This document shows, in pieces, positions 27,778 to 58,972 of a stretch of 64,000 nt of DNA. Positions within the stretch are counted from its first letter, which is position 1. Each line of letters starts with the position of its first letter. Under the pieces are notes generated by a model. That model was given only the letters and a program-made list of their open reading frames with translations, was not told the origin of the DNA and ran no database searches. Source of the stretch: Cirrosporium novae-zelandiae (Eukaryota). Both the position numbers and the translations under genes were made by a program. The stretch is taken from the NCBI GenBank assembly GCA_026023565.1, contig JAPETS010000063.1, forward strand, positions 1 to 64,000, in the 5' to 3' direction.

Positions 27778-27839
27778 TAATTAATATCTACCTAGGGACT
27801 CAGTTAATTAATATCTACCCAGGGACTCAGTTAATTAAT
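27778..27839. repeat. 27-bp tandem duplication
   Basis: TAATTAATATCTACC(T/C)AGGGACTCAGT repeated twice plus a partial third unit. Confidence 0.85.
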
Positions 27840-30781: not shown

Positions 30782-32586
30782 TTATTTTCCCACATCGAAT
30801 TCCCTTTCACTCAAGTCCTTTTTGAACCCTACCCGACGAAGCACTACTCCAAGATTAGCATCAATCTCCGCCGTTCTTCTGGCCCAAAAAAGATGCGTCT
30901 TCCCCTTCCAGTTGTCTAGCCGGTAGCTCGTCGGCCCTTTGCTTGAACTTCTACTACTTGATGCTCGATTCTTGAACCCCCCGAGTATTTTGCTAGTCAT
31001 CTTGACGTACTTGCCGCCGGCATTATTCGACTTCTCCACCCATTCAAAGGCCCGAGGTATCATGGTTGCCTCGTAGGCGGAAACGGCGGAAAGGATCTGT
31101 GCGTTTGTGGGGTGATCTGTCTGGGCAAGGTTGGTCAGGGCGTCGCACACTTCGCCGGCATCGCACATCGCTTGGTTGCCTCCCATTGCTCTGAGTCAAA
31201 ATGGGTTAGTTCTCTAGTCTTAGGCTGATAGGTCCGTGCACCAGCACGGAGGAGGCCTTACCTTGTTGGAAGCATTGGGTGAATCGAATCACCGATGAAC
31301 CTGGGGACGTTAGCATGTGAAAAATTCTTTTGGATGCGAACTCAATTCGTACCAGATGCGAGGATGGCCTTTCCTGGGATCTATGAATTTCCCAAACCTT
31401 CCAGTATCCCTCCAATTAGACTCCGGGCACATTCCAACTCGACCGTAGAACCTATAAAACTCTTCCTCCGGAGTTGATCGTATGATATCATGACTGCAAG
31501 GGCATTAGTTGCTGCGTAAAAACCATACTTTCTCGGAAACTCATACATTGTTGGACTCCAATGAGAGATGATATCGATAACAAATTCAATCGGATCATCA
31601 ATATCCATGTCTTCCGGTAGCTTCTCCCGAGGAACGTTCATGTTCCACATTAAACTTGCAGCTGCTTCATCATAGCTGATATCTGTTTCATCACTAGAAA
31701 TGGACCGGCGAGACGTTGATCGGACAGACGACTCCGACGAAATGGACTGTTTCCAGTAATCACGAGGATCATGTAGCTGTACAAAGTCTTGTTGCTTATA
31801 AGTCTTCGGACGTGATGAGAGTTTATTCCGCTTTTTTTCGGGCAAATATGCCGACGCGATGAAAGATATGCCATTTTCTTCAATCACAATGGGACCAGCT
31901 CGAAGTTGACGTGGTAGCTGACGGAGCTTTGATACGGGAAGTTGGCACTTTGCAATGAAACCGCATCGTTCCTTGCGTTCCAGAATGTTATCGAGCCCTA
32001 CTTCTCGGTTGATCTGAGCGAGTCAGTTGCAACGTCCACGAGCACAAGGTAGTATTAACAAGGGATTTCATACCTTCGATCCAGACCCATCTGCTGCTAT
32101 CATGATATCCCCCTCGGCGGATGTACCGTCATTGAAATGGGCTCTTATTTTATCCCGTCCACCTTTTCCCGAAATAATCTCACATTCTACGTACTTCTTC
32201 TCAAAGTGAACTACCCGGGCCTTCTTCAACGGCTCGACCAAGGCATCCCTAAGAACAACTCGGTTGATCGGTGCACTCTTCGAATAAGGCTGGGTCTTAC
32301 CAAAACCCCTCAGTGGCTCCAGGTCTATGTTGTAAAGGACAGGAGTGGTGTAGATTTGGCCATTTGTTTTACCAAAGCGTGAGATGATATCTTGGCAGAG
32401 ATCGGTGTTGAGACAGGTATGGAAACCACGAAGAGACATTGCACCCAGTCGAATTTGATAGCCCTCGCGCTTGGAATCTTCGATATCTCTTTCATAAACC
32501 TCGACTTCGAGGTCATTCCGAATTAATCCATTAGCAAGTAATGATCCCGCCAAGCCGGCACCAATGATGATAACCTTAAGAGCCAT
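30782..32586 (-). CDS. FAD-dependent monooxygenase (group A flavoprotein hydroxylase/epoxidase type), at least 4 introns
   Basis: IIGAGLAG Rossmann motif, EGYQIRLG, IAADGSGSK (DG motif), spliced RIWFIGDSIHPMLPTRAMGGNQAMCD (GD motif); GT-AG introns restore frame; exact 3' exon structure uncertain. Confidence 0.9.
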
Positions 32587-34801
32587 TGGAAGGTAGAAGA
32601 GTGGAAATAAAAAGCAAAATAAAGTAGTCTGTCATGGCGATGAATATAGCAAGCAACAGATGGACAGGCTTCAATTTAAGTATCAAGGCGTAACAGAATG
32701 AGCGTGTTACCCAAAAGGGAAAACGTGCAATGAGGGTAGAAGCTCGGCCGGGGAAAGGACAGAGCTTGTGGTATCATTAGTATGGCGCTCCATGGATGTT
32801 CAAACATGCCATGGACACAATCGGGGAATAATACAAAACGGTTGAATAACGGTTAATAACGGTTGGTTATTGTTTAAAGAGGTCGAGATTGCACCATCCG
32901 AGCCGGGGTCTGCCGGTGAACAAGGGGATGCATGAATAGTATGGACATGAAGAGAATAGTTTGATAGGGAAATAATTAGAGGATGGATAATTGGATTGTG
33001 GATGTTGAATATGGTGAAAATGGGATCCAGCCCGAATGGTAGTAGTGTCAAGTAGTGGAGGAGGTCAGCGGAAGGTCGATGGATTCGCGTGTAGTGCTAC
33101 CCGTGAAACCCAAAAAAACTGTCGGGTTTTTTCTCCTTCAAGGCCTGCACAGACCAAGGAACAGCTTTGTTAGACGATCAATGCCGAATCAGTATATCGA
33201 GTTGTTGATTTAGTATATTGATGTGACTGATCGTCGCATGCAGCTGTCACTTTTTCTAAATCCAAGTATACAGCTCGGTGGCGTGTCATTTTGATTGCTT
33301 GAGAAGCCTACCTGGGAATTCTTATACTGCCCTAGCACCGAATGCCGATAGATCGATGGACATGGATAACCATCCTTGAATCACTTCCATCTGTTGAATC
33401 CTTGAATCCTTCCAGCGGAAACTGGCGGGAAGGACAGCCTTACCCTAAATACCGAAAGAGAATAGTCTCAAGGGTGGAGCAATAATGATACTGCCGCAAG
33501 AGGAAGAACGTCCTCCCCCCGCAATGCGCATCATTAGCAGAAATCATCAATTGCAGCTACCCGAGGCATTTAGTCCTTATACTATAATATACTATGTACC
33601 CTCGCTTCCCGTAGGTTCATTTGATATTTGCGTATGTGTGAAACATCCTCAATTGAACTCATCGAAACTCACAAACTCCACGAAATGTTGCAAAATGTCG
33701 AGCATATCAAACAATTGGACTTTTCAAGCTTGACCAAAGTCTCAAGTGGAGGCGGTACGTATTTCAGGGCCGCGTTTTTGACAGGGATTTATCCTGGTAG
33801 TCGGATCGTATTTGCATGAGCCAAGGCACTGCAGGTGGCCTGACTGTGATTGTGTCTTAGACTCCATGTGTGTGTTTTTTTGTTAATTGTTTTTTTTCTT
33901 TCGCTTCTTCGTTGTTTCCATTCGCTCTTCCGGGCAATTGTTCTGGTGGACAATGGCCATGGTAATTAGATGCTGGTTAAACCCAAGTCTATCGTGGCTT
34001 GATAGAATGCAGCCATGAAACCGACTTACCAAACACCAGGTCTTTGGATTCGCATGTACCTACCTTAGAAAATTTAGAGTGATAACAAGAATCGAGATTA
34101 GAGCCACGTCACGTTATACACTGGATAGTAGATCTGTAGTTATAGCATCAAGCCTCTGATACAAAAATCCTCAAGAGGCAATAGAGCAAGCTTTGGGGGA
34201 GGCAAACAAGCAGTACTCTCCGCAAATTTCTTAACAATAAGTTAATAATAACCCACGAGGGTCAAAAATCCAGTGTTTGATCATCATGGTGAAAAGTCAG
34301 GGGTGTTTCCAGGGATTGGGGATGCATATGCCAGATCCAGAAGCCCTGTAAGTTAGGATAGGAATTCAGTACTCGGGAAAGGAGTGATGGCAAGGTTGTT
34401 GATTCGATCATAACGACAAGATGTGATTAACAATATTCCAAGGGCTGGACCTTTATTGCTTTTTATGATAGTTCCAGGGTTTGTGAACCCTTAGGCAACA
34501 AACACCTGAGGAAGCTCTTCTGACATTTGACACCGACTTTTGACAACCTGAAGACTCCTAACCTTTCATCTCATCCGCAATTCCAGATTGATAACTCACA
34601 ATTAATATTGATGGGCAGTTGCAGTTCCCATTATACAGTCACCATGGATACAAACTGTAGAACTTGGCTTGTTCGATGGCCTCTAGTGCTTACTTTACAG
34701 AACTCTGGATGAATCCATGTCCTTATGCAGCCTTATTATACCCTTGGCATGAACTTTGGTACAAGTCAAAGACAACGTTCAGATTGAAAGGACAACAGGT
34801 G

Positions 34802-36598
34802 ATGGCCTTGCAAGTCCTTATCGTAGGCGCTGGTGAGTACCTTCAACCTCCTTGTAAGTCATAGCAGAGATCAATTAACCGGTTATTTGTAGGAATCAGC
34901 GGATTGGCTGCTCTCAAGCAATGCCTTGCCGATGACATCGCGCCGACGGTATTTGATGCCCTACCTCATATAGGCGGACAATGGCATTATTCCAAACCTA
35001 CATCCACATCTAACCTTGTGGTATCCTCGATATATGATGGTGTGGTAATCAATTCATGCCGCGATACTACAGCTTTCAGTGACTTTCCTATTGACCCTGC
35101 TCGATACCCACAATACTTCAGTCATCGCAAGTTCCTACAATATATTCATGAATATACCGACTACTTCGGGTTGCGGAAATACATTCGTCTAAATACAAAG
35201 GTCCTTAAGGCCATTCAAGTGGATGATGGGAAGTGGGAAGTTACATATCAAGAAAATGACAAAGAACCAACAACAAAAACATTTGATGCTCTGTTTGCTT
35301 GTACTGGCACCAATTCGAAGCCCCGTATCCCAGAATTTATTGCACTGGAAACCTTCCAAGGTCAATTTTTTCATAGCCATTATTATCGGACCCCGGCTCC
35401 ATATGAAGGGAAGAAGGTCGCAGTCATCGGAATTGGTAGCTCCGCCGTAGATATATCATCCGAAATTGCTCCATTTGCAGACGAATTCCATCTCATTACA
35501 AGGCGAGGAGGTTGGGTAATTCCACGCTTCGTGTTTGGGAAGCCTGTCGAAGCCTTTAACAGTATGTATCTAAATATTCTAGCCTTTGCCATAGGTTGGG
35601 TTAAGCCAATCAAGCTTGCTTTGAAGTCTTCTTTAGGCAGAAGTAAACTTGAGTTTGGCCCAATTCGACTTATTACCAATTCTAGTTTCGCGTTTGCGGG
35701 GAATAGTCACTGACATTTTATTCCAGGTAGGATTGAAACGGTTATCCCACCGGCCATCGCTGATTGGATTCAACAAAAAATCCTCAATATCGCCATTGGA
35801 CAACACCCAAAAGTGATCAAACCGAAGCACAAAATATTAGAAGCATCTCCTACTGTTCACAGCAACTTTCTTGAAAAAGTGCGTGTGGGTCAGATCAAAC
35901 CACACAGAGCAGGAGTAGACAGGTTTACAGAGGACGGCGTCATTCTAACAGATGGGACTAAATTAGCAGTCGATGTTGTCATCAGCTGTACAGGCTACCT
36001 GCTCGATTTTCCTTACCTTCCGCAGGACTCTTTTCATGCAGCTCAAAGCAAATTCATGCAGTCTGATAAATCACTGAACTTGTACCAGATGATCGTCCCT
36101 CCGAACTACCAAAATCTATTTTTCCTCGGTATACTCGAGAGTGATTCTGCACTTGCGCCTTGCGTCGAGCTACAGGCCAGATGGGCTACCGCTATTCTTA
36201 CCGGAAAGCTCACTCTACCTCGCCCTGAGAAGATGTCCGAGGAAATTGCAGCTCGTCAAGTCTCAATGTCAAAGCATTTTGTTCGATCTGACCGTCATGC
36301 TATCATGATCCATGGCATGCAGTACAATGACGATCTTGCTAGTCAACTCGAGGCTGCCCCAACCTTTGGACGCCTTTTATCCAATATATTCAAATCGAAT
36401 CCCATACGAGCCATATCATTGATGAAAGCTATATATTTCGACATGCCATCTGCTGCCCAGTACCGTCTATTTGGACATGGTGGATTGCCTGAACTTGGAA
36501 GTGCAACAGTCTTGAGGGTGGCTAATGAGGGAGAGGAATTGAGCCTGGAAGAAAAAGAAGCTCTCGAAGCATTATCTAGCTCGAGGATAAAAGCTTGA
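34802..36598 (+). CDS. Flavin-containing monooxygenase (group B FMO); introns 34833-34892, 35562-35726
   Basis: Spliced MALQVLIVGAGISG; GGQW; FMO fingerprint FQGQFFHSHYY (FxGxxxHxxxY); second Rossmann motif VIGIGSSA; ISCTGY; ELQARW. Confidence 0.92.
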
Positions 36599-39467
36599 TA
36601 TCTCAAAGAGGAAGTCATAACTATAAAGCATTCGATAAAAACTGCTGATGCGTTAGTGGGCTTTTAATGGTAATCCCATGTAGCTGCGCATTATCGTGCT
36701 AGCCTAGTTAGAAGCACAATTCCCTTGGATAAATAGAATAAAGACTCATGGGTTTGAACCTTTACAGATCTTTCACTCAGGAACCATCTGAATGTAGTTT
36801 TTTTTTACCAAGTTGCAATGGTGTTTTGGTCTTTAAGCTTTAGGCCTGACGGTGTGTTACCCTTGTACTTTAGGGGTAGACGCTCTTTATAGGTTAGTCA
36901 TGACAGTCAGAGATTAGTAGGGAGATATCGGGTGTGTGTGTGCGAATTAGTTAAGTTGATGGGGTAAAGAGGTAGATATGAATAGGTAGAGCTTTAATGC
37001 CAGTAAGTTGGCTTATGAGTCTGCCTGTGAGGTTTTCCGTTTGGCTCGTAAGATGCCTGCTGTACCTATGTACTTGTATGTATGAACGAAGTACTGGCAG
37101 GCACTTAAGCGTTGCAACGTGACCTTTCTAGGGCTGTGGCATGTACTAAACACTTGTACCATTGTATCTCCAGCTGGAAATTAAGACATGAGACATGATT
37201 CCGACAACCCAGTTACCTTGCGGCCATGAACTGATACCACTGGCCCGGTATAGAATATATTTGTTTCAAAGGTTCAGTAGCAGATGCTTCGTGGGTAGAA
37301 GCCGAGAGAACCCATAAAACCGAGACAGTTCGGTTCCTGTTATCCATGAGGTTGGGGTTTGCTTACCCTTCTCAGGTCAAGTGTTAGAAATTCCTTGAGG
37401 AACCTGTGCTTCCTGGGATACTTGCGAAATTATTATACGCCTAGCATATAGCTCCCTCGACGACATGCGAAAGAATTCAAAGCCGTCGGGAATAATAGAG
37501 CATGTACTTCGCATCCCCCCCCCCCCCCAAAAAAAAGACCAAATCAGACGATGGGTTTGCGGTTAATGGAGTTCGCAAAAGCTCCATAGGATAATTTCAA
37601 CTCCTGAATACTGGTAACACACCTTTCTGAACTTGAACTGATAAATCTTGTGTATTGCTTCAATATTGTCAATATATTACGGTATTTAGTCAAGGAGGAT
37701 GTACTGTTAAGATGCAGCATGATGGGTTTCGGCCAGAAAGGTTAGGGGAAATGGATGTATGGCAAGGGACTTTCAATGACTAAAGCATTGACCAAGGCTA
37801 TGTGCTTCGGCAGATACATACCATGTAGCCGATACCCACATTATTCATCCGAACTGTGGTTTAGACCTTTTCCCGTAATCGGCATATGGGTCCTATGATG
37901 GCTAGAAGCGTACAACTTATCTCGGTTAGAGAGTGTGGGGTATCAAAGAACCTATCAAATTCAGGTCATTCCTAAAATTCCCTTGCGCATGAAAGGAGTA
38001 ATGGGACATTTGCGAAAGCTTCGATTATTTCATGATACCTTGTTGGTACATCAAACTGCAAAAAAATGAATCCATGTCAGCTATTTCCTTAGATCGAGGG
38101 CGGTGAAGCTGATTCCACAGTATTCTTCAGTTACACAGCCGTTATAATGATCAGCTCTAATGCCCCTAGCAGTCTCCACTGATGATAGGAGCAGCCCACA
38201 GCCTGATCTAGGGAATTCCCGTAAGTTATTCTCCTGATTATAAAACTTTCGAAGAAAAATCGCATGCAAGATCACTTGCTAGGCGAGCCATAGCATTTGT
38301 GGCAGCTTCCTTCTCCACTATACCACCATATGAGCCCATGAGAGCCTTCGATGATGGGGAGTGGTTCTTTGATATTTTGTATTAAGCCCTTGAACAACCA
38401 AAACTGTGGACATGATTGGGTTCATAAGATACTTAAGCTTTTTGACATCCTGGGGCCAGTTTGATAGGCTACACGGTGGAAAGCGATGGTGGAAGATTAT
38501 CTTTGTCGTTCGTAGTCTTGGATTTGGACGCCGGGATTGTGATGGCAATGGGTGCTGATTAGGGTGGGTCAAGTCATGGCTGACTAAATCAAAATCTTGG
38601 TCGATCACAATTCCTGAAATAGTATATTCTTCCCTTCAGTAACTCTGAGGTGTGGTGGTAGGTGGTCGCAGGTCTCGTAAATCTCGTGAATACTTGGTAC
38701 CATCAAGTTTTAGAGATGAAGCTCAATCATTGGTTTTCAGTTCAGTTACATCGCTCATAGGTCTGGATTCTCTTTCATATATATCAATCAATGTAGCGAC
38801 TCGTGCTTCTCTTGTAAATCGTAGTCGGAAATTCGTGCTCGAGATGGAACAGATCGGCTATCGTTCGATGGAAGGAGGCAGGTGACGAGAGATGAATGAA
38901 GCTTAGCTGGTTGCAAATGTCACAGCTCTCATCATGGGTTTTAATGTGCTCATCTCATCATTTATTTTTCTTGCTATATAAGAAGAATTGTCATGTTAGT
39001 GGGCCGTTTAGATTGATAGGGAGCAAAGATTAGAAAGACGGAACTTACTTGACTCTACATATGTAACCTCTAGTCGGAGCTTTTCGGCGGTTGATTTCCC
39101 GAAAGGCTGTTACGGGAAGATATGCCGCGAAGATCTGCGACGTTATCTTTCACTATAGATTTCTTAGATGGAAAAAAGAGAAAAAGTGACTCATCTTCAG
39201 CTTGTGATTGAGAAGTATACAGTATGCCGTCCTATATACGCGTACTGTGTAGAATAGGCCAACTCCGATTTATCAGATATGGTGCGCAAGGCTTATCGTA
39301 AAACAATTAATTTAATTCAATATCTAAACGAGATAGAAGTAGAGAAATTTTGTTATTGTTAAGAACGAATTTTTTGCTAATATTTACACGCCAAATGTCA
39401 CTTACCTTTTTGTGTTCCTTTTCTCAATAATACCATAATGAAGTTGAAGTTGAGTAAGTGGTGGAAA

Positions 39468-42400
39468 TCATACTGATTTCAATGTTGGATCCATGCCTTC
39501 CCACACCATAGCTACCAGCCCTTCGACCTGGCGCCCGCCTTCCAAGAGCCCCATGAACGGTACATCCGCTTTTAGTTCCCGCCATGACCAGCTGCGCAGC
39601 TCGGCGCTGATCATACTATCCATACCAAACTCTGATAGCGGCCTCGACAACGAGGCCGCCAATTTTTCTACCGGCACCAACACTAGTTTGGAAAATTTCT
39701 GTAGTACTAGGTCACGTACTGCATCTTTAATTCCCTCTTTACCTGCTCGTTGCGCTCCTGCCGCTAGTACAGCAGACGTCTGTGATGCTGCCGTGGCAGA
39801 AACTTGCACGTCATCGTTGAAACCATCCATTGCCCCAATTACGCCGCGAAGGCGGTTGTCTTCGAGCCATTGAGACTTTCCGCCGACTTTGGGGAAAGAA
39901 ACTCGTCCGGGGTCTAAGCCTGCCACGAGATGTGATCGTGCGCAGTCGTCCCAACCCCATGTAGAGGGTCCAAAGTCTCGGCTTTGGCAAGCAAGTTCCA
40001 TCATTCGTAGGAATTCATCTTCGTCAATAGGATACATGCCATTCCGTCTCAAGGCGTCCGCGACATCTGGATGTGCTTCGACATGTCCAACTTCCATAAC
40101 CATACCAAGTGCGATGCACGTTGCTTGGAGTCCGAGGCTGTATCGATGTCGTGCCATGTGATCTAGAAAGGCGTTTGCCGCTGCGTAATTAGTTTGCGTT
40201 GAGGGACCAATCGCACCAAGCATAGAACTGGTCATAACGAAAAAGTCGAGCGGTTCATGCAATAGAGCTTTATGGAGATTGAGAGTTCCTTTGACCTTAG
40301 GGTTAGTTACGGCTTCGAAAGTTTGCAATGACATGTCATCGAATAGAGCATCCTATTACAAGGTTAGCGACTGTGATACTGATAATTTGAGTCAACATGT
40401 ATACACACCTCTAAATGCATGGCTGCTTGAATAACACCTCTGATTGGAGATTTGGCAATTGCAATCGCTCTGTCGACATCTTCAGGGACCGAAACGTCTC
40501 CACGTATTACCTCAACTGACATGCCTTCACCGAAGCTTTGCAACTTTTGCACAAAGGTGGCTGCCTCTGGCTTGTCGGTACCTGAACGAGCGAGGAAAAC
40601 GAAATTTCTAGCACCGCGACTCGCCATCCACAATCTGGGTCGTTAGCATATCCTTGTATACTTAAGGCAAGGACAGGACTTACGCGATACTACGTCCCAA
40701 GCCTCCAAGACAACCAATCATTAGATATGTGGCAGTAGGGCTGAACGCCAATGGTTTATGTGTAGTTTGGACCTGACGAGTAAGGGATTAGATGATGTAA
40801 GCTTATTTTACTGGATGGGCGTGCTTACGGGAACAATGCTTTGTGGACTGCATGTCAGTACGACTTTAGTGAACGCGTTGCCACGAGTAGCAGCTCCAAC
40901 CGCATTGGGGAGTTCTGAAATGTCAAACGTATCAACCGGACTAGATATTTGTATTTTACCATCTCTGTAATTATTCAGGACCTGGTGCATGAGTCTGAAT
41001 GCCCGATTGTTAGTTTATAGGAATTCTCATGTCAATTGAGATCATGGCATACCTTGAAGCTGTCTCGGGTTTGGTGCTAATCATCTCAGCAAAATCAAAA
41101 GAGGCGAAACTCGCACCCTTTCTGAAAATTGATACATCAAAGTGTCCCAAGTCTGGCACATCATCTCCTACAAATATGAACCTACCGTTTCTAGCCAGAC
41201 ACGTCCAAACATCCTGGAGAGCAGGGGCACCTGAAGCTGCAAGGACTATATCAACGCCTTTCCCTTCGGTGGCGGCTAAAACGTCATTGGAAAGGCCGGC
41301 AGAGTTTGCGGGCAATATACAGTTCTCTGGGATATTGAAAGTATTGTGAAGGTGTTCCTTCTCCTCATCAGAACCGGCGGTTATAAGAGTCTGGGATCAT
41401 TAGTGAAGACTCTAGTAAGAGCTTCGAAATAAAAGCAAACCTTGCAGCCAAAGATCCGAGCAAAAGTTACAGTAGCAGCATATATAGGTCCAGCACCGGT
41501 ATGAATCAAGACAGTCTAATATTATCAGCTTGAAAGAAATTTGTGGAGAGAATAATCCCTGATTGCTACCATACCTCTCCCTGACTCGCGCGGCCTAGAT
41601 CTTGCAACGCATACAATGCTGTGCAGAACGGAACCAGAAGTCCTACTATTTTCGTAGTATCTTCGTCTTCTCGAAGCAGCTCACATGCATACTCAGAGGC
41701 CACAAAAGAGCTGTCAAATTTTCCAGATGTCAAACAAATGACACGGTCACCAACCTTAACCTTAGTAACATCTGGGCCGATTGTGACGACAGTAGCTACA
41801 GCCTCGTGGCTAAAGGATTCGGCATCATGTTGACCTTTTAAGACCAACGCTTCCTGAAAAGACCTGCAATCAGTATTGTACCGCTCGAACTTCTTAGGCA
41901 ATACATACTGATTTACGTAAATTATATGCCTGAGGCTCCACAATGATCTGTCCGGTTTTGAGAGACGTATCGGAAGAAAGGTTCTGTTTGAAGTAAAAGC
42001 TATCCAGACGTCCAACTTGGAGAAAATCAAGCGACAGCTCTGGTTTAAAACTCTGCTTCTCTGGTATAGGCTTAAACTGCCGGCGGAAGTTGGTATTTTC
42101 TATATCATCAGTAATATAACGGCTGATGTACACCATACCATTTTTTTCAATTAACGCGGTATCAAGACTATGCTCTGAATCCTTTTGCCAGGCCAGTTCA
42201 TGCTGTAAGATTAAGTTGGCGGTGCGAACGTGGTCAGTTCCATCTGGATCAATATCGATGGTGGATAATCGGAAAGATGGCTGTTCTGTCACAATGGACT
42301 TGGCCATACCGAGGACAAGTGACTGTTCTGGATCTTTCCCGGTTAAGAGCCCCCCGCGTGTTACCCAAATTGCGGAGGAGACTGTCTTAATGAGCGCTTT

Positions 42401-45400
42401 AAGTGTTGTCATCTGCTCATCCTTCATCCTGGACAAGATTGGACCCTCCAGTTCGGCTAGCATTACGGCGCGTGAGTCTTTTGGTATTTTTTCTGAGGCA
42501 GCGAGGAGGGGAACGCTATGGACTTCAATCCCAGAATCTTGAGCAAGTTTCTCTATTTCTTTGACCACGGGATGCGGTTCGTTATAATATATCTAGGATA
42601 GTCAACAGTCTCCAACGTAGCAATGCGTTAAGATTTTACGTACCAACCAGAGAGGGGATTTTGGTAATTGGTCTGGGCTATTATCTCCATTCATTGTTGG
42701 GTTTGATGCTTGTACTGTGGAAACAATGACACTGGTAGAGCTAGCAGAGCCGTCGTAATCATCCAAGACAATATCATTACCGGAGAAGCCAGCCTGAATA
42801 AAACGATCGTTCCAGGCAGATTGCGAGATGAATGGTGTTGAATTGCGGCCATCCTTTTCACCTAGCCAGTATCCGGGGAGCGGTCCCTAAAAATAATCAG
42901 CCAAAGTTCTAAGCTGGCTCATAAAAAGCATTACCAGCATAAATCCTAAGGTAAGAAGATCTATAATATCGTTAATAAGCCGAATGGAGGAACTCCTGGG
43001 ATTATCTGACCTCTTGTGGTTTCAACAAGTATCATTTTCCCACCCTCTTTAAGCAAAGCCTTGCAATGCTGCAGGGAGGCGGTAATATTTTCTGTGGCAT
43101 GAATCACCTACAACTTATTAGATATGCTTCTCACGATGCGAATGTACTAACATTTGAAGCTAAAATTAGATCGAATGAATTCGCTTCAAACCCCTGGCCC
43201 ATAGGGTCATGCTCAATATTTAGAGCACGGTATTCAATGTTCTTGAAATCCTGAAACTTCTCTTGAGCAGTGCCTAGGAATGCTGTAGTCACGTCGGTAA
43301 AAGTGTACTGGGAATATTGTGGTGTTAATGAGTTTCCACCGAGTGCCTGCAGCATTGGTCTGGTAGCACCGCCGGTTCCAGCACCAACCTCAAGAACCTT
43401 GAGACAAGGCTCCTTATGTGCTAGAAGTTTCACAACATTGATAAGCTGTGGGTATGCTGCTTTGAAAGTAAATCCGTGCTCATAGAGATAATTCAGCAGC
43501 CCATCTTCAAACATTACATCCAATGCCCCAACTTTTCCACCTAGAATATCTGAGATTCGTTCACTCAGTCTAACGGTCATTCGTGCCTCGGGAACCTCAG
43601 CGGCCAGGCTTGATAGAAGCTCCTGGATACGCTCTTTGCGAAGGGTTTCTGATAGCTTCCCGGATTCTGTCTCGGTCAGTTTTTCTCCCTCAGATTGGAG
43701 CCACTTGGCAAATTTTTGCATGTGCGGAGGTTGGGCTTCCATATCAATGTCTTTTGGGACCCTGGGAAGGCTGTCTAATACGCAGAGCGCTGAGATTTCT
43801 TCCAGTTGCTTCAACAAAGTATTCCACTTTGGATCGCTGACCCCGTTGGGAAATAGTTTTCTAATAGGTGAGCCTTTCAATCTATCTATATCGGGCTTCC
43901 AGATGAGGCGGGTATATGGCTGGCGAGGTTTCTCGTTAGCTTGCTTAGAGAACCCACCCTCAAGGGAATAAAAGGTTCCTTTGGTCTCGACCAGAAGTTG
44001 TCCTTCATCATTGAACATTTCGGATGTGGCATGGGCTGACCGTAGACCGTGACGAGTCCCATGTCCCTGGATCAATCCATATTCAGGCAGTGGGGGTGAG
44101 TTGGGGCCCCGCCAAATGGTTAGGTTTTCTATCACTGTAGGAAGATACGCTTTGACAATGTTCTTCACGTTTCCCCACGCTCCCATGACAGAGAGCTGGA
44201 GGCAACCATCCAATGATGACGGATGAATTATATAACGTGATTCTCCCGACATTATGTCTTTTGTTGAGTGTAAAGCTATCCTTGCAGTGGCTTCATCGCG
44301 CTCTTCGATAGTATTTATATTAGAGACTGTTTGGAAGCTTGGTCCATACTCGAGGCCAATATTAGACAAGGCGGAGAACCATTGACGATCACTCTTCTCA
44401 TTTCCATGTGCACTACACTCTTTAAGGAGCGCTATATTGGAATTATTCTTCCCTAAATTGAAAAGGTTAGAAAACATAAATGACTAGTGGGAGATTATTT
44501 GTATACCGATGTTAGTTAAATGCACGGCAATTCTGCCAGCTGCATGTTCTGTCCACTTGTTATCCGGAGTGACAGAGCTGACTTTGAAGTCAAACCACCT
44601 TGTTGCCTCTTTAGAGTTTATGCCGTCAAGCACCAGTAAGTTGAATAGGGTCTCTACTTCCCCTTCTATCGGCAATACTAGAGGAGAGGTTATATGGAGT
44701 CCTTGGAGTGCGTATCCCTCTGGGATGGTTCCTCTGTCTTCTGCAACTTGGGTCACAGCCTCAATTGCCATGGCCATATAACCAGCAGCGGGAAATAAAA
44801 TATCGTCTCCCACCTGATCAAGCCTTGTGTTTCAGTAAATCGCCATTGCACTTGGAAAAGTTACGAACCTTGTGATCATGAAGCCATGGTACATTCTTTA
44901 ATTGCAAAATGTTACGCCACAGCGGGCTACAAAGTGAACTACCTGGATCACGGCTTCCAAGTATATCGTGGCGACAGTGCTTTCGGAAACGGATCTCGCG
45001 ACTAAGGCGCTTCTCCTTCCACGGGATGCTTTCATAGTTCCATTGGTAGGATGGCAGTTCAACCAGGTGAGATCCTGTTTTGTAAATAATTTCCTCCGAG
45101 GACCACGAAACGGTTGATTCAATGGAATTGATACGTTCTATGTTAATGGGATACCCACGGAGGAATAAAGATCCAGCTGTCTTTAACACGTTTTCGCCCC
45201 CATCTTGGCCTCTTATCAATGTTGGAATATAGTTTAGTCGTTCAGCATCAAATTCTAAGACTGATCTAATCTGTCTGATTGGACCAGCAAGGGCGGAGTG
45301 AGGCCCTATCTCAATTAAGTTATTCACGGTTGGATGAGCAGTAACTAGACTTTGCAAAGCCTCGTCAAAAAGTACCGGAGACTCGACGTTCTTGCGCCAA

Positions 45401-48302
45401 TACTCGATTCCAACGTCATTCTGGTTGCTAAGCACCTTTCCAGTGATGCAAGAAAACATTGGTACTTCGGACCTTCTAGGAGCATTGAGCAATGATGGAA
45501 GTGATGACTCGAAACATTCTTGATAGTATTTTCCGGCATCTCTTACAAGGTGCGAATGATAGGCATTTCCGAATGTCTTAAGTTTTCGAGCAAATATGCC
45601 ATCTTTTACCAAGGCTGCATTTATTTCATCAATTGCAGATTCTCCTCCACTAAGGGTGACACTAAAGGGAGAATTGTGGCAGGCGACAACCACATCTGGC
45701 TGGTTTTCGACATATGGCTGCACTTTGATGACACCAAGGCCAACTGCCATCATTGCACCGGGATGATGGCATTGAGTAACCGCAATACCACGATAATATG
45801 CCACTGAAATAGCTTCTGCGGCAGTCAAAAGTCCAGCAGCGAAGGACGCAGCGACCTCGCCTTTTTAGAATAGCTGTTAATACTAAAGGAGATAAGTAGA
45901 GATTAAAATAGAGCTCACCAGAAGAATGGCCAACGACCGCGGCTGGGTGAACCCCCCATGACCTTAGAAGCACTGTAACGGCAATTTGCACGGCGGTGCA
46001 AAGGGGCTGAGATAAAGCGGCATCTTGAACTCTGCTTGTCTTTGCTGGTTCTGCCAGAAGACCTAAAATGACATATGTGTCAATGTTCTACTACCGCGTA
46101 GGATTCTATTCACTGTGAATATCGTACCTATAAGAGTCCATTCTGGAGGTGGAGAGAGCATATCTAACACATCCTGAAGCTGATCAAATGTTTGGCGGAC
46201 AGAAGGATATTGCTGAATAAGGGAATATCCCATTTGTGGCCACTGGGCACCCTGGCCTGTAACCTTTAATATCAGCCTTCAAATTTCGCAAGAGATATTT
46301 CCAAGGCAGGTTTCGTAGTGAAAGTCAAACCATGCATGACAGCAGACCCCTTTGAAAGAATGAAACGTCGCATGAATAGATATAATTATAGAAAAGGGCA
46401 TCGATCCGAATTTTTAATTCTAGAATGGATTTCCTCATAGCATGCTGAAAAAATATCCGAGTAATGAAATTTAATTTGATATAGCTCAAATTTATCGCTT
46501 GACTTACCGGTGAATACAAAAGCCAGCACTGGCTCAGCTGAAGGCTGAGAGCCGTAAGTCACGTTGCTTTCTTGTAGCTGTGAAGCAATGTCGCTTCCCA
46601 TCGAAACACTAAAAGCACGATTATAGAGCTTGCTACGCCGAACACCCAAAGTATAGGCAATATCCAAAGCATCATACTTATGAGCAGACTTGGCTACTGC
46701 TTGAATGTTCCGATTTAGGGTAGGCTGGTCATGGGCAGAGAAAGCAAGCAGATATTTCTTTTCCTCCAAGGATTTGACTTGGATGTGCCCATTGGTCAGA
46801 GCCTCTCCTGTTTGCGATTGTTTCAAAGAAGTCTGGATTTTGAACCAGGTACCTCTGTTTTCAAGGAAGAGATCTGGTGCATCTATTATAATATGCGCAT
46901 TCGCTCCCCCATAGCCAAAGGAATTGACACCTCCACGGCGAGATTTGAAGAGCTCCGGCCAAGGAGTATTTGCGCGAACGACCTTAAGCCTACCGTCTCT
47001 GAAGTCGATATTGGGATTCAGTTTTTTTATACCGACAGTTGCTGGAATGCATTTGTGCTCGAGACCAAGAACGACTTTCATAACACTAGCCAGTCCACTA
47101 GCACCCTCAGTGTGTCCTAAATTTGTCTTGATAGATCCTATTAACAGTGGATTTTCTTCGCTTCTCCCTGAAGCAAATACGTTGCCAACAGCTGTTACTT
47201 CTATAGGATCTCCCACTGGCGTACCAGTGCCATGGCATTCGACGTATCCAGTCTGGCTAAAGTCCAACCCAGCCTTCCTATAAGCATCTCTGATTACAGT
47301 CTCTTGATCCGTTGAGCTAGGATGATTGATACCTGGGCTCTTTCCGTTTCTGCAATATCAATTAGTCCTTGTATTCTCAAAGGAAGTTGCTGATATTCTT
47401 CGTGTCTTACGCGTTAACGGCAGTCGACCTAATTATTGCACGAATAGGGTTCTTGTCAGCAATAGCAGCAGATAACTTCTTCACGTAAAGAGCAGCTATG
47501 CCCTCTCCTCTACCAAACCCATCGGCGCTCTCGTCAAAGGTATGGCATGTGGAAGTTGGGGATAATATGCCCAGTCTGACACTGTCAATGTGTTGTTCTA
47601 TTCCTAAGATGATGTTGGTCCCTCCAACAACTGCAGCCGTACAGTCTCCTGCAATTATACTTTGACATGCTAAATGAAGAGCATAAAGCGAGCTGGAACA
47701 AGCAGTATCGAGTGTCAGACTCGGCCCTTTCAGGTTAAATACGTAGTTAATACGATTGCTGAGGATCGTCATATCACTCCCAGTCATTTGATATGGGATA
47801 CCATACTCGGGATCTTTTGCGTTCATCTGAGAAAAGTCCCTTGTAAAGCAACCTACATAGCATGCGGTTTTAGATCCTGACAGATCTGCAAGTGTTGTAC
47901 CAGAAGACTCAAAGCTTTCATATACTACTTCCAGAAATTTTCTTTGTTGGGGATCCATACTAGCCGCCTCCAGCGGGTTTATCCCGAAAAACGAGGGATC
48001 AAATTCGCGGTAGCTCTCATCATGGCTCAGAAAATATCCACCTCGCGTTGGAATACTTCCAGGTCGCGAGCTATCTGGGTGGTACCATGCTTCCATATTA
48101 AATCGATTCTTTGGAATCTCTGACTGTGCTGACCGCCCTTCTTCAAGTAATTGCCATAACTTGGAGGGTGAAGAAGCGTCTCCTGGGAATCTGCAACCTT
48201 GAATGCTGTCAATTATGGTCCACTTGAATAGAATTTAGAGATGGTTTCACCCATTCCCACAATCGCAATTGGCTCAGGGGCCCCTCCATAATGGCCGTCC
48301 AT
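39468..48302 (-). CDS. Highly reducing iterative type I PKS, KS-AT-DH-cMT-ER(degenerate)-KR-ACP; 19 exons
   Basis: [76 protein letters not shown]; c[43 protein letters not shown]. 18 GT-AG introns traced by hand give a continuous frame, including a 26-nt micro-exon at about 42936-42961. Confidence 0.96.
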
Positions 48303-49320
48303 TGCTTTTGGTTTTTTATTAATATATGCAATTAAGATATAAAAAGAGAGTTTGATATGAAATATTCCCCTGCTTCATCCCATCAGACTCAATGTAGAGT
48401 CTCGGTTCTGATGGACGGGGTTTCCAGTCGAATTTGTGAATTCTAGAGGTATTACAGACGGACAGAGCAGGATAAGGAATAAAATCTGGAGATGCAGTTC
48501 CATCTTCCGGGAGAGACATCGCAATCGCGAGAATGAGGTGATAGCATTCGTGGCACTGCTATCCCCTTTGCATCATGCATATGCGCACACTTTGAACAGG
48601 CGACCACAGCTAGCTCTTAGACCGCATAATATCTTAATGTCACAGCGCCTAAACTATATCCTCAATTGTCATGTGCATATGTAGGCTTTCCTTGTCTCTA
48701 GCAACACTTTCCGGAGAATGAACTAGACGTGCTGAGTGGCGAAGCTAGGGAGGTTATGGTGAATGCTTGGTCAATTGCAGCACTAACTGTCTGGAAAACA
48801 AATAGATGGGGATAGTGCATTACTTACAGTATCTGAGGCATCTTCAATGAGTCTGATTGCATTACCCAGCTGTCCCACAGGACCAGGAATAGTCTTAGTT
48901 TATTCACTATCGGACATGGTTGAGTTTCAAAAGACAACTCATCATCCGCAGCTAGTTTTCGCATGTGGCACATAAACTACCGAGATTCAAACTTCACCTC
49001 GAATATTCTGTACTTAGTATATCAATTAACTCTGATCAACGCTACCCGCTACGGTCAGCCAAAAAAAGGAGCATCTCCTGGGGATGGCAGGTCGGTGTTA
49101 AAGAAATTCCAACATTCAGGTGCTGTCGATCAGCCCACACTAGGGAAATTGAGTTTTCTTCTTCCTACGAAGCATGGAGATGTTCTTTTGGTCACCCAAT
49201 AATGGATGTAGATCAGAGTTGCCTCTGAGTAAATGAATTGGTTGTATGGTAGGATTATTATAGCGTCTATGGATTGTCCAGCTCAGAGGTTGAGCTCATT
49301 CTCGTTGAAAGTGGAGTTGC

Positions 49321-49712
49321 TCATTCTAGTAAGCAAATCCGTGCTCGGACGGGTCGTTCATGAATATCCAATGCATCATGTACGGTATAAGGCCGTCGGG
49401 CTATCATAAAAAGGTGGGGATCGTTGGCCGACGGCCGTGATACGTCTGGAATGATTGGTGTAGAATGGTTCAGAGGGAATCGATAATGGTGGGTGTCTGG
49501 ATCGAGATGGAAAATCCCTAACAACTACAAATGATTATTGGGCAGCCACTATCAACGTTGATTCGAGAAATGTTTTCAATAAAATAACACCAGCGGCACA
49601 GCACTGCACCTAAAAATAATATATCACGATTGGAGAAATTTAGTAGGATTTCGTATTGAATTTGAAGTGTTATTGGGGGGGAAAGATGAAAGGTCGCATC
49701 ATTGCCAGCCAT
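49321..49712 (-). pseudogene. Possible F-box protein relic
   Basis: FHLSPPITLQIQYEILLNFSNRDILFLGAVLCRW resembles the F-box pattern L..LP.EI..EIL..L...DLL....VCR.W; followed by a stop and frame change. Confidence 0.35.
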
Positions 49713-50240
49713 GCGGAGGAAGGTGTGGAAGTTGTAGAAAGTGTGGAACTTTTAATTAACTGATAATCTTTTTTGAAAAGACTTGAATTCTAGACTTTTT
49801 GTATTTTTGATTTTTGAATATCCTCCTATCGGAACCTTGCCTAGTTACCAAGTGCTTATTAGTCTCCGCAGCTTCCGATACTAAATGACGCCTGCTTTTG
49901 TTGAAAATAGAGGATTAAGATGATCTCACTTTGGTAAATATTTAAGCGCGGACAATTGTCAATTGAAAGGAGGATTTTCTATAATGGGGTAGGGGTGGGT
50001 GGTGTGTTGTTTGTGATGATTATATTGGATGTGTTTGATTTGGCCATTGATGGTGTTTGGGCGTTGAAGATCTACGTAAAGGAAGGAATTAAGAAAGTCG
50101 ATGGAAGATGAGGAGTGGTGGGAGTTGGTGGGAAGTGGAAGAAGGGAAAAGCCGAGACAACCTAAGGGGTCACCTGGCGGGCACTAATTCGGCCGCTAGT
50201 TGGGGTGGCATTGATGAATGTGTGAGTGCACGTTGTTGAA

Positions 50241-50356
50241 ATAAAGCCCGACAAATCCACCAGAATCCACCGAATGCACCAAAACCCAACCAAATTCTCC
50301 CAAATCCCGCCAGAACCCACTAAAACCAACCAGAATCCCTCCAAATCCCATCAAGT
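50241..50356 (+). repeat. Degenerate ~10-bp periodic array (consensus about CCAGAATCCA), about 11 units
   Basis: ACAAATCCAC CAGAATCCAC CGAATGCACC AAAACCCAAC CAAATTCTCC CAAATCCCGC CAGAACCCAC TAAAACCAAC CAGAATCCCT CCAAATCCCA. Confidence 0.7.
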
Positions 50357-50953
50357 TATTCCTCGTGTCCACCAGCTTGGAAAAGACTACGTACCGAGGG
50401 ACCCAGAAAATACCCTAACGCGGGGCTTTGACCACAGCTATTATGGATATGCCTGTAACCAACACCCGCTAACCCCATAACCAGGAAAGTGTCCCAGTCT
50501 CTAGGGACATCAGATACGGGCAAAAGTACCCGGAAAATAATCGGACTGCTGGATAGCGTATTCTTTACATGGATACCTTTTCGTTATTATCTTTCCTCTG
50601 CTACATGCAGGCCCATCAAGGCCATGTGCATGTGTTTCGTGCTTCATGCACCTCAGTATCAAGTTATGTTCTGCTCCGTTCTACACATACGACATTGTCT
50701 GGCAACACTGAAATCTTGGTACTTGCTTTACGATGGCTTCGTTTCCTCATTTCCGCAATCTGGAAAGAGGCGTCCATCGCTCCACCTGTAAACGTATCAT
50801 GGACATTTCGGACATTCCAAAGCCTATCCATCACCGCATGTTAACATGGCTAGAAATTCTAGCTTTACATTGCGCCCCCTTCTCATACCAGGAATCTAAT
50901 AATTCGATATCACTTAATTCTCAACCCATTTTTTATTGAAGCTGCTCTCAAAA

Positions 50954-52931
50954 ATGGTATTCCAACCAGATGCATATTATGACATCCCTTTCGTGGATTT
51001 ATTGTCATGGACACTTGATAATCTTACCTATGATGAGGACAAGGACGTGAGCTATTTTCCCCTTGACCTTCCACCGTGTTGCTGAAGCATTGGCCTGACA
51101 TGTTGCTCCTTTGATTTCTAGATATTCATTGACGCCGCTGATGACACTCGCCGGCTCACAGCACGACAGGCCCGGACCCTAGTGCGAAAGCTTGTGGGTG
51201 GCTTAAAAGAAATTGGTGTTAAACCTGGTGACTGTATCTGCTTGCATTCATTCAACGATGTAAGTCTGTCAGAATGATATATCAATTGCTAGCTCTGATA
51301 ATTTACAGATTCTCTATTCTCCAATATATCTCGGTATAATAGGGGCAGGAGGACGCTTTGTTGGGTCTAATCCGGGCTATACATATCTCGAGTTGCATCA
51401 CCTTCTCTCCACTTCTAAAACTAGATTTATAATCGTGGAACCCGAATTACTTGAGAAGATCCTTCCTGCGGCACACGATTTCGGTATCCCTGATTCGAAC
51501 ATATTGATATTTAATCCCCGTCGCGCATCTATACCAGATGGCTTTGTTTCTTGGGAGACCTTACTTCAACATGGCGAGAGTGACTGGATAAGATTTGACG
51601 ACGAGCAAACGGCAAAGAATACAACGGCTGCTCTTCTATCTACAAGTGGGACAACAGGGTTACCAAAAGCTGCGGCAATTTCTCATTTTGCTCACGTTGC
51701 CCAAAGCAAGCTATTATATGATTCAAAAGATAAACCTTATCAGGTCTCACGACTTCTATGTCTTCCCCAGTTTCATGCATTTGCTGCCCCCTTGGTCCAC
51801 ATAGCACCTTTACGAGAAGGTCATACTACATATATCATGCGACGTTTTGATCTGGAGAAGTACATGGGCTGCATCAAACGATACCAGATCACAGAGACAG
51901 CTATGGTACCTCCAATAATGGCAAGCGTCTCTGAATCAGCTCTTGCAAAGACTGGATTGATTTCTTCACTTCGTTATATCTGGTGTGCTGGCGCACCCTT
52001 AAGTACTTCCATAAATCGACAAATGATGAATCTTCTCGATCCAAACGCTATAATCTCCCAGGTCTGGGGTATGACCGAAATTGGTTGGATTACCACATTC
52101 CTATTTCCCGAACGAGATGAGTCCAATAGTGTTGGAAGGCTATTGCCGAATATGGAGGCCAAGTGAGTGACCAAGAAATTGACCTGACTCGGAGTGCTCT
52201 ACTAACCTGGACTTTAGGCTCATTGACCGAAATGGCAAGGAGGTCACCAAAGAATGTTGCAGTGGTGAGATTTATGTCCGCGGTCCTTCGATCATGTCTT
52301 CGTACTTGGGGAATCCCGAAGCTACCTCGGCGTCGTTTGAAGATGGCTGGCTTAAAACAGGTGACATTGCATATTGCAAGTCCGGGAAGTGGTATATTAT
52401 AGACCGCGTCAAGGTTAGATTACCTATATTATCCTATACTATTGTAGTCCTACCTCTAACAGTATCTTTTTATAGGACCTCATCAAAGTCCGGGGCTGGC
52501 AGGTTTCCCCAGCAGAGCTAGAAAGTTGCCTCCTTATGCACCCTCGAATCATTGATGCCGCAGTTGTTGGTATTCAAAACTCCACCCACGACAGCGAACT
52601 GCCCCGAGCTTTCGTGGTCGTAGACCCCGACTCTCCATATCCAGTGAAAGAAAAGGAAATCAAATCCTTCGTGAGAGCACGCCTAGCTAAATACAAAGCC
52701 CTAGATGGTGGTGTTAGATTCGTCAAATCCATACCAAGGAACGCCAGTGGTAAAATACTAAGACCTATGCTAATAAACGGGACCATGATAGAATGGGAAG
52801 ACAAGTCAAATAGTCAAGGCCCTTCAAATCCGATTGCCAAGAAGAAGCTGAGGGTACGACTTAGTCGTCGGTTATTATCCTTTATGGGAAAGACGTCGAG
52901 GGCATTTAACTCGATGCGGGCGAAATATTAG
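50954..52931 (+). CDS. 4-coumarate-CoA-ligase-like acyl-CoA / acyl-AMP ligase (ANL superfamily), 4 introns
   Basis: Spliced start MVFQPDAYYDIPFVDLLSW; STSGTTGLPK (A3), QVWGMTE (A5), WLKTGD (A7), DRVKDLIKVRGWQV (A8), PRNASGKILR (A10). Confidence 0.93.
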
Positions 52932-58910: not shown

Positions 58911-58972
58911 CAGGTGGAGGATGCTGCTGGATATGTATTATTGGGGGTGGGAAGGCATTTAAATGTTGGAGG

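What the first reader, a model, noticed from the sequence alone, without database searches (positions are those of the whole stretch)
30782..52931. Candidate orphan polyketide cluster: HR-PKS + acyl-CoA ligase + two different flavin monooxygenases, as two divergent pairs
Seen: four intact-looking genes arranged as FAD monooxygenase <- -> FMO and PKS <- -> 4CL-like ligase, with no other intact gene between them and core genes or pseudogenes outside. Established: HR-PKS plus ligase is the lipoinitiation module of lipopeptide pathways (emericellamide EasB/EasD, pneumocandin); ligases also supply aryl-CoA starters (squalestatin, strobilurin); an HR-PKS with two flavin monooxygenases makes the epoxy-polyene depudecin. 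Inference: this window combines both logics yet shows no NRPS, acyltransferase, thioesterase, transporter or transcription factor. The product may be a methylated polyene acid that is CoA/AMP-activated or primed with an unusual starter and then oxygenated twice. I cannot match the gene set to a characterised cluster from memory.
Basis: partly seen in the sequence, partly recalled or inferred. Interest (0 to 1): 0.8.

Follow-up and report, generated by a model that had tools for sequence, protein, structure and literature searches.

The report
Orphan fungal polyketide–ligase gene cluster
Four intact fungal genes sit together; two of them (a polyketide synthase and an acyl-CoA ligase) also occur as a pair in another fungus and probably make and activate a methyl-branched polyene acid, while the two neighbouring oxygenases may or may not belong to the pathway.

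Summary
In detail: four intact, spliceable genes (group A FAD monooxygenase, 522 aa; class B FMO, 523 aa; HR-PKS, 2553 aa; 4CL-like ligase, 578 aa) form two divergent pairs. The PKS keeps its KS, AT, DH, cMT, KR and ACP catalytic residues, but its ER NADPH loop is degenerate, as in its whole clade, so a methylated polyene is likely. The PKS-ligase link is real: one independent fungal contig (L001) carries orthologues of both (56% and 48-61%), but with other tailoring genes (a non-orthologous FMO, an SDR, an epoxide-hydrolase-like and an O-methyltransferase-like gene). The oxygenase pair is unproven: neither is in L001, the FMO belongs to an old, apparently vertically inherited group whose orthologues lie far from PKS genes in 3 of 3 genomes checked, and the two promoters share no motif. 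Against pure chance, two flavin monooxygenases beside a PKS is about 0.1% under a uniform null. No characterised cluster matched, but the PKS search excluded proteins over 2000 aa. The scan's earlier notes held nothing on this locus. Verdict: a genuine orphan cluster core, new variant of a known kind, moderate interest.

The parts
30782..32586 (-). Group A FAD-dependent monooxygenase (cctM-like family), 522 aa, 5 exons; membership in the pathway unproven
   Evidence: model, 100% to P0121; Xylona heveae and Sarea resinae 57% and 53% full length, others about 40% or less, one named cctM; these three form a clade, support 1.0; model pLDDT 82.5, fold of 4hb9/TetX/TropB
32587..34801 (.). Divergent intergenic region (2.2 kb) between the two monooxygenases
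   Evidence: no excess of k-mers shared with the PKS-ligase intergenic region
34802..36598 (+). Class B flavin-containing monooxygenase, vertebrate FMO-like, 523 aa, 3 exons; possible tailoring enzyme
   Evidence: 100% to P0001 residues 43-565; FMO-like E 1e-53; closest structures are ancestral mammalian FMO2/FMO5, E 1e-75; single copy of its kind in G000; tree follows fungal groups
36599..39467 (.). Convergent gap (2.9 kb) with no recognisable gene
39468..48302 (-). Highly reducing iterative PKS, KS-AT-DH-cMT-pseudoKR-ER(probably inactive)-KR-ACP, 2553 aa, 19 exons
   Evidence: orthologue in L001 56% over 2578 columns; KS clade support 0.986 with L001, Aureobasidium melanogenum and unnamed metagenome PKSs
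48303..50953 (.). Divergent intergenic region (2.65 kb) between PKS and ligase; holds a stop-interrupted ORF-like stretch at about 48320-48915 (-) of no known family
50954..52931 (+). 4-coumarate:CoA-ligase-like adenylate-forming enzyme, 578 aa, 5 exons, no canonical peroxisomal C-terminal signal
   Evidence: best PDB hits are 4CL, E 2e-25; orthologue in L001 with introns at the same four places and in the same starred clade

Best explanation
The PKS and the ligase are the conserved core of a small biosynthetic cluster. The PKS extends an acyl starter with malonyl-CoA, reduces and dehydrates each unit, adds SAM-derived methyl groups and, having no working enoylreductase and no trans-ER beside it, leaves a methyl-branched polyene (residues shown; product inferred). 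The cytosolic ligase most likely activates the released acid as an adenylate/CoA thioester for a further reduction or transfer by an unlinked enzyme (inferred; about 60:40 over priming a non-acetate starter). The tailoring genes around this core are exchangeable: in L001 they are another FMO, an SDR, an epoxide-hydrolase-like and an O-methyltransferase-like gene; here they are absent and at least one of the two resident flavin monooxygenases, most likely the adjacent class B FMO, has taken over oxygenation (epoxidation or hydroxylation) of the polyene (inferred, about 55%).
For: Four intact genes. Catalytic Cys184/His319/His359 (KS), Ser650/His753 (AT), His981/Asp1166 (DH), SAM loop 1439-1445 with His1521/Glu1547 (cMT), Tyr2315 (KR) and Ser2505 (ACP) are present (their roles are recalled). 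In the ER loop Pro1971 and Tyr1973 stand where human FAS has glycines; the loop is also broken in L001 and the other clade members shown, and intact in 5 of the 7 outgroup PKSs shown. Precedent: the strobilurin PKS has an inactive ER, no trans-ER and makes a triene (PMC6158276, passages). L001 links the orthologous PKS (56%) and ligase (48-61%, same intron sites) within 3.6 kb; both group with the window's genes in trees. The two closest ligase paralogues in G000 lie on a contig without a KS match or about 290-500 kb from the KS matches of their contig and fall in another clade, some members of which end in a peroxisomal signal. Post-PKS activation by a CoA ligase is known for GloL/GloD and SQTKS/Mfm9 (PMC8902786, passages). 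L001 also has a class B FMO next to its PKS, and G000 has no close relative of it (best 34%). With at least 26 flavin-monooxygenase loci in 31.4 Mb and 8 PKS loci, two within 20 kb of any PKS has a uniform-null chance of about 0.1%.
Against: Only 1 of 78 metagenome loci was a true orthologue, so conservation rests on one locus, of which 6.6 kb upstream were not fetched. Neither window monooxygenase has an orthologue in L001. The FMO tree follows fungal groups and its orthologues ARB_01976, TRV_05781 and CIMG_05875 are 173, 100 and 304 locus tags from the nearest PKS/NRPS in Table 2 of PMC3091305. Its closest solved relatives are heteroatom-oxidising mammalian-type FMOs, not known polyene epoxidases. 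The two divergent promoters share no more k-mers than shuffles or other intergenic stretches. One flavin monooxygenase within 20 kb of some PKS has a 12% chance, and accessory genes are not spread evenly, so the null is too strict. No acceptor enzyme for an acyl-CoA and no release enzyme is in the window. The window's ER loop keeps two glycines, so inactivity is inferred, not shown.
Confidence: 0.5

Rival explanations
1. Two-gene core with bystanders: the PKS-ligase pair lies beside two older resident monooxygenases that serve other ends (detoxification or catabolism); the polyene acid or its CoA ester is finished elsewhere or not at all.
For: No orthologue of either oxygenase in L001; FMO single-copy in G000 and tree congruent with fungal groups, far from PKS genes in 3 of 3 genomes; Xylona and Sarea have the FAD monooxygenase orthologue but are absent from the 120 listed FMO hits, which reach down to 27% identity; no shared promoter words.
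Against: Needs two coincidences (FMO beside PKS, second monooxygenase beside FMO), about 0.1% under a uniform null; the sister cluster uses a class B FMO at the same rank. The neighbourhoods of the Xylona and Sarea genes were not seen.
Confidence: 0.35
2. The ligase acts before the PKS: it makes a non-acetate starter (benzoyl-, cinnamoyl- or medium-chain acyl-CoA) that the ER-less PKS extends to an aryl- or alkyl-polyene, as Str10 does for strobilurin.
For: Best solved relatives are 4-coumarate:CoA ligases; the strobilurin pathway joins an inactive ER with a dedicated starter ligase (PMC6158276); no acceptor for a finished acyl-CoA is in the window; a starter role explains why only these two genes stay together.
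Against: No PAL or cinnamate-shortening gene in the window or in the 20.8 kb of L001; similarity to 4CL is family-level; in the pathways read here the ligase more often acts after the PKS (GloD, Mfm9, proposed for Tri17).
Confidence: 0.3
3. Decaying or split remnant: the window holds what is left of a larger cluster of the L001 type (recalled to resemble the restricticin/lanomycin gene set), whose SDR, hydrolase, methyltransferase and FMO were lost, and the remaining genes make no finished product or work with partners elsewhere in the genome.
For: L001 has four tailoring genes that this contig lacks; in G000 the hydrolase-like gene was not found with this query and the SDR and FMO have only distant paralogues (36% and 34%); stop-riddled ORF-like stretches lie at 48320-48915 and 53500-55750.
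Against: PKS (19 exons, 7.7 kb coding) and ligase have no stop or frameshift and keep their catalytic residues; the relic stretches show no likeness to the L001 tailoring genes.
Confidence: 0.15

Closest known systems
Pneumocandin GloL/GloD and squalestatin SQTKS/Mfm9 (HR-PKS plus CoA ligase; PMC8902786, passages)
   Same: An HR-PKS without its own release domain paired with an acyl-CoA ligase.
   Different: Those pathways hand the acyl-CoA to an NRPS (GloA) or an acyltransferase (Mfm4) and make reduced chains; neither acceptor is in the window and the ER here looks dead. Sequence orthology to GloL, SQTKS or EasB/EasD was not tested.
Strobilurin StPKS1/Str10 (PMC6158276, passages)
   Same: Inactive ER, no trans-ER, polyene product, dedicated CoA ligase, flavin-dependent tailoring.
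   Different: StPKS1 has a dead internal and an active C-terminal cMT and comes with PAL and a non-haem iron oxygenase; the window PKS has an intact internal cMT and no PAL.
Depudecin cluster DEP2-DEP5 (gene list from PMC6177402, passages)
   Same: HR-PKS with two FAD-binding monooxygenases nearby.
   Different: No MFS transporter or regulator here, a ligase is added, and neither oxygenase retrieves hits named DEP2/DEP4. No direct sequence comparison with DEP proteins was possible.
Uncharacterised cluster on metagenome locus L001
   Same: Orthologous PKS (56%, cMT kept, ER loop broken) and ligase (48-61%, same intron sites), with a class B FMO beside the PKS.
   Different: Ligase in tandem rather than divergent; FMO only 25% to the window's; adds SDR, CtvD/AurD-like membrane protein and a probable O-methyltransferase; no group A monooxygenase in the 20.8 kb held; PKS nearly free of introns.
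Restricticin/lanomycin clusters (listed as PKS/NRPS with a CYP51 resistance copy in PMC13515044, passages; enzyme list recalled)
   Same: The L001 set (HR-PKS, SDR, FMO, epoxide-opening cyclase, O-methyltransferase) recalls this polyene-to-tetrahydropyran logic.
   Different: The window has no SDR, cyclase, methyltransferase, NRPS or CYP51; the primary paper was not held, so this is a lead only.

Membership tests
Fungal highly reducing iterative PKS | KS-AT-DH-(cMT)-ER-KR-ACP on one chain with catalytic residues | tested here: met
Fungal highly reducing iterative PKS | Active cis-ER (glycine-rich NADPH loop) | tested here: not met
   Pro1971 and Tyr1973 replace two glycines of the human FAS loop; clade members also degenerate. 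Places it with ER-inactive HR-PKSs; activity itself untested
Lipoinitiation module (EasB/EasD, GloL/GloD type) | HR-PKS and acyl-CoA ligase linked and conserved | tested here: met
   Window and L001; one independent locus only
Lipoinitiation module (EasB/EasD, GloL/GloD type) | NRPS or acyltransferase acceptor in the cluster | tested here: not met
   None among window ORFs or long ORFs of contig bases 64001-104000; none in the 20.8 kb of L001, whose upstream 6.6 kb were not held
Lipoinitiation module (EasB/EasD, GloL/GloD type) | Ligase activates the PKS product | not testable with these tools
   Needs an adenylation assay
Aryl-starter PKS pathway (strobilurin, squalestatin hexaketide) | PAL and benzoate-forming genes in the cluster | tested here: not met
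   No such ORF in the window or L001; the rest of G000 was not searched for PAL
Aryl-starter PKS pathway (strobilurin, squalestatin hexaketide) | Inactive ER without trans-ER, plus dedicated CoA ligase | tested here: met
Depudecin cluster | PKS with two FAD-binding monooxygenases adjacent | tested here: met
   (class level only)
Depudecin cluster | Orthology to DEP2, DEP4 and DEP5 | tested here: inconclusive
   0 of 120 listed hits named DEP4 and 0 of 120 named DEP2, but most names are generic; the PKS search covered only 465-2000 aa; DEP sequences were not in hand
Depudecin cluster | MFS transporter DEP3 in the cluster | tested here: not met
   No transporter ORF between or beside the four genes
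Restricticin/lanomycin cluster | NRPS and CYP51 resistance copy beside the PKS | tested here: not met
   Absent from the window; not excluded for the unfetched part of the L001 contig
Class B flavin-containing monooxygenase | Two Rossmann motifs and the FxGxxxHxxxY fingerprint | tested here: met
   Residues 9-14, 165-175 and 190-195 of the model (motifs recalled); Pfam FMO-like 311 bits
Group A flavoprotein monooxygenase | GxGxxG, DG and GD motifs and PHBH-type fold | tested here: met
Co-regulated four-gene cluster | Co-expression or shared promoter motif | tested here: inconclusive
   No shared k-mer excess, a weak test; no RNA data were available
Co-regulated four-gene cluster | Four-gene set conserved in other genomes | tested here: not met
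   0 of 1 informative loci; Xylona and Sarea neighbourhoods not seen

The most novel reading that the evidence does not exclude
A portable two-gene PKS-ligase cassette that makes and activates a methylated polyene acid has, in this little-studied fungal lineage, shed its usual tailoring genes and recruited two resident flavoenzymes, one of them from an old single-copy FMO group of unknown function that is shared with Onygenales, Eurotiales and Sordariomycetes. The locus would then be a cluster caught at assembly, would make a new doubly oxygenated polyene, and would give a first substrate for that FMO group and for the cctM-like family.
Probability: 0.3. Interest if true: 0.62.

Novelty: new variant of a known kind. 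Interest (0 to 1): 0.38.

Why it matters
Orphan HR-PKS clusters are common, so the locus alone is a routine mining lead. What lifts it a little is that the PKS clade (ER loop broken throughout, cMT kept in some members and cleanly deleted in Aureobasidium) has no product assigned in what could be searched here, that it travels with a dedicated non-peroxisomal ligase but no acceptor enzyme, and that the whole set is only four genes and easy to express. The experiment would show whether such a ligase primes or off-loads a PKS, and whether old single-copy oxygenases can be drafted into a cluster. None of the 8 papers listed for the genus name concerned its metabolites, judged by title and start of abstract.

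Tried and rejected
PKS homologue search covered only proteins of 465-2000 aa, so full-length characterised HR-PKSs could not appear; its fungal top hits are partial proteins. The rest of the L001 contig was not held. Shared promoter words: no excess over 30 shuffles at k = 8-12, nor over five control stretches at k = 9-10. Horizontal transfer by composition: GC3 of the four genes 0.42-0.48 against 0.42-0.53 for six neighbours, no signal. Hidden genes or relics of L001 tailoring genes in the gaps: none. Liamocin PKS1 as identity of the Aureobasidium relatives: could not be decided; PMC11905612 (passages and supplement passages) gives the accession AND82609.1 and a KS-AT-DH-ER-KR-ACP layout but no sequence, and a broken ER loop fits 3,5-dihydroxydecanoate poorly unless a fatty starter is used. 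Ramularia ligase CZT20000.1 beside a PKS: passages of PMC8998751, PMC4979122 and PMC4936691 did not say. Paper searches for a matching cluster: 0 papers with all 5 terms; 5; 2 reviews; restricticin; primary paper not held; none listed described this gene set. The single-sequence fold of P0121 failed (pLDDT 32.6); the alignment-based one worked. NCBIfam gave only sub-threshold generic matches. Earlier scan notes: 8 bacterial PKS notes sharing 3-5 of 180 words, nothing. The ligase tree is the quick IQ-TREE run, not the finished careful one (41 rows: window, three locus-derived rows, and those of P0436-P0499 and P0588 of 400 aa or more plus two shorter top hits). KS, FMO and FAD-monooxygenase trees are FastTree on search hits filtered by length (KS: at least 50% identity and 330 columns; FMO: at least 450 aa among P0002-P0070 plus six chosen distant rows; FAD: at least 400 aa, 80 rows), so their sampling is biased to near hits.

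Full report
Setting. The window is bases 1-64000 of a 105.9 kb contig of a 31.4 Mb fungal assembly, G000. Two of its proteins are identical to named records labelled Cirrosporium novae-zelandiae with consecutive locus tags; the genus forms an isolated Pezizomycotina lineage (PMC6712537, start of abstract in the search listing). G000 has 8 strong type I PKS loci.

Observation. All four genes are there and intact. Models from exon coordinates have GT-AG at 28 of 28 introns and no internal stop: FAD monooxygenase 32586-30782 (-, 522 aa), FMO 34802-36598 (+, 523 aa), PKS 48302-39468 (-, 2553 aa, 19 exons), ligase 50954-52931 (+, 578 aa). Pfam gives the full HR-PKS domain string, AMP-binding and FMO-like domains. 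The gaps of 2.2, 2.9 and 2.65 kb hold no recognisable gene. Core genes flank the set; the nearest Zn-cluster transcription factors are more than 40 kb beyond the ligase.

The PKS. KS, AT, DH, cMT, KR and ACP catalytic positions are present (roles recalled). The ER domain is present but its NADPH loop has Pro1971 and Tyr1973 where human FAS has glycines. The loop is also broken in L001 and in the Aureobasidium and unnamed metagenome members of the same KS clade, whereas 5 of 7 outgroup PKSs in the alignment keep a glycine-rich loop. The clade has support 0.986 in a FastTree of 61 KS sequences. The Aureobasidium melanogenum members share 55-57% over KS-AT-DH but lack the cMT domain. An inactive ER with no trans-ER gives a triene in strobilurin biosynthesis (PMC6158276, passages), so a methylated polyene is the reasonable inference; chain length cannot be read from sequence.

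The ligase. It is a 4CL-like adenylating enzyme (best PDB hits 4CL, E 2e-25). Nearest named relatives are from Tricladium, Ramularia and Pseudovirgaria (54%, 56% and 48% full length; 10 of 150 hits were looked up). In the quick IQ-TREE run it lies in a starred clade of 8 rows with the L001 ligase, apart from the two closest G000 paralogues, which group with Blastomyces-type enzymes. Three members of that other clade and the paralogue on L087 end in a peroxisomal-type tripeptide, and no member of the window's clade does, though two are fragments and the window's end is one residue off the consensus. This fits a cytosolic partner of the PKS (inference).

Independent evidence for the core. A metagenome scan returned 78 loci, of which one, L001, holds a true orthologue: 56% over 2578 columns. 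Within 3.6 kb upstream lies the orthologous ligase (48-61%), with introns at the same four places. Between and beyond them are a class B FMO only 25% like the window's, an SDR, a membrane protein whose predicted fold matches the C-terminal domain of FAD_binding_3 fusion proteins (TM 0.80; I read it as CtvD/AurD-like from recall, and PMC8902786, passages, names these as epoxide hydrolases), and the start of a probable O-methyltransferase (read by eye; Pfam dimerisation domain only E 0.074). A cyclin gene closes the other side. So the PKS-ligase link is conserved and the tailoring set is not. This rests on one locus, and 6.6 kb of its contig were not held.

The two monooxygenases. The FMO is a class B enzyme closest to mammalian-type FMOs among solved structures, single of its kind in G000 (next match 34%). 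Its hits span Onygenales, Eurotiales and Sordariomycetes, the best at 48-52% full length, and the tree sorts them by fungal group, with the window as a deep branch: an old, apparently vertically inherited gene, not a cluster-specific one. Its orthologues ARB_01976, TRV_05781 and CIMG_05875 lie 173, 100 and 304 locus tags from the nearest PKS or NRPS in Table 2 of PMC3091305 (section 9 read whole); tag distance is only a proxy. The second enzyme is a group A monooxygenase with the fold of 4hb9, TetX and TropB, in a family with one hit named cctM; close orthologues were found only in Xylona heveae and Sarea resinae (57%, 53%; clade support 1.0). These two species are not among the 120 listed FMO hits. 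Neither enzyme has an orthologue in L001, and the two divergent promoters share no more words than controls. On the other side, G000 has at least 12 FMO-like and 14 FAD_binding_3 loci (in one search only 18 of 44 candidates were scored); with 26 loci spread evenly, two within 20 kb of any of 8 PKSs has a chance of 0.1% and one of 12%. The sister cluster keeps a class B FMO beside its PKS, and G000 lacks a close relative of that gene. I put both oxygenases in the pathway at about 0.4, one of them at 0.15, neither at 0.35, and a non-working remnant at 0.1-0.15.

Mechanism. Shown: intact genes, domain string, catalytic residues, broken ER loop, conserved PKS-ligase linkage. Inferred: methylated polyene acid; activation by the ligase after release, as for GloL/GloD and SQTKS/Mfm9 (PMC8902786), rather than starter priming as for Str10, about 60:40; oxygenation by the FMO and perhaps the group A enzyme. 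Open: how the chain is released and what accepts the activated acid.

Comparison with the known. It works like a lipoinitiation or strobilurin-type PKS-ligase module, but fails membership of either (no NRPS or acyltransferase; no PAL). It resembles the depudecin cluster (DEP2, DEP4 monooxygenases, DEP3 transporter, DEP5 PKS; PMC6177402, passages) only by enzyme class: no listed hit is named DEP2 or DEP4 and there is no transporter. The L001 gene set recalls restricticin/lanomycin clusters (PMC13515044, passages; enzyme list from memory; primary paper not held). The claim that no characterised cluster matches rests on names and on paper searches; it is weak for the PKS because proteins over 2000 aa were not searched, and MIBiG was not available. 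The original depudecin, restricticin, liamocin and Ramularia PKS papers and their supplements were not seen and may bear on it.

Verdict. Observation confirmed; interpretation partly supported. A real orphan cluster core, seen twice, with a doubtful oxygenase arm. New variant of a known kind; interest 0.38.

Noticed in passing
L001:1-17662: An uncharacterised cluster: probable O-methyltransferase, CtvD/AurD-like membrane protein, SDR, ligase, class B FMO and HR-PKS; more complete than the window's and recalls polyene-epoxide-tetrahydropyran pathways (recalled).
   Followed up: partly
P0294, P0389, P0415, P0431 (Aureobasidium melanogenum) and P0295, P0296, P0310, P0327: Orthologous PKSs with the whole cMT domain cleanly missing and a broken ER loop, present in many A. 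melanogenum records; whether this is the liamocin PKS1 is untested.
   Followed up: partly
window 39468-48302 against L001:9953-17662: The window PKS has 18 introns while its L001 orthologue runs 2279 codons in one frame; the last intron position is shared.
   Followed up: no
window 48320-48915 (-) and 53500-55750 (+): Stop-interrupted ORF-like stretches, probably gene relics; no Pfam match and no likeness to L001 genes.
   Followed up: partly
window 34676-34801: The database model P0001 starts 42 codons upstream of the start that matches the homologues; probably an over-extended annotation.
   Followed up: no
L082:1125-10000 (G000:C89 about 95-104 kb): Two Zn-cluster transcription factors, another FAD monooxygenase and a carboxymuconolactone-decarboxylase-family gene near the contig end; a possible catabolic group and the nearest regulators to the cluster.
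   Followed up: no
G000:C75:98428-99123 (-) and C75:114856-115566 (+): Two PKS genes about 16 kb apart and divergent, a likely two-PKS cluster.
   Followed up: no
G000:C35:396528-397373 and C47:396527-397372: Matches with equal scores at near-identical coordinates on two contigs, suggesting duplicated contigs in the assembly.
   Followed up: no
window 2678-18054: Tautomerase-family, NAD-dependent reductase, cytochrome-b5-fused acyl-CoA dehydrogenase and class I/II aminotransferase genes 13-28 kb upstream, separated from the cluster by core genes.
   Followed up: no
window 19225-26058: TAF8-like and TAF7 genes back to back, followed by a SNF2/RING helicase; these mark the left boundary.
   Followed up: no
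window 26100-30700 and 56000-59900: Long gene-free, low-complexity stretches with short tandem repeats and strong GC skew on both sides of the four genes.
   Followed up: no
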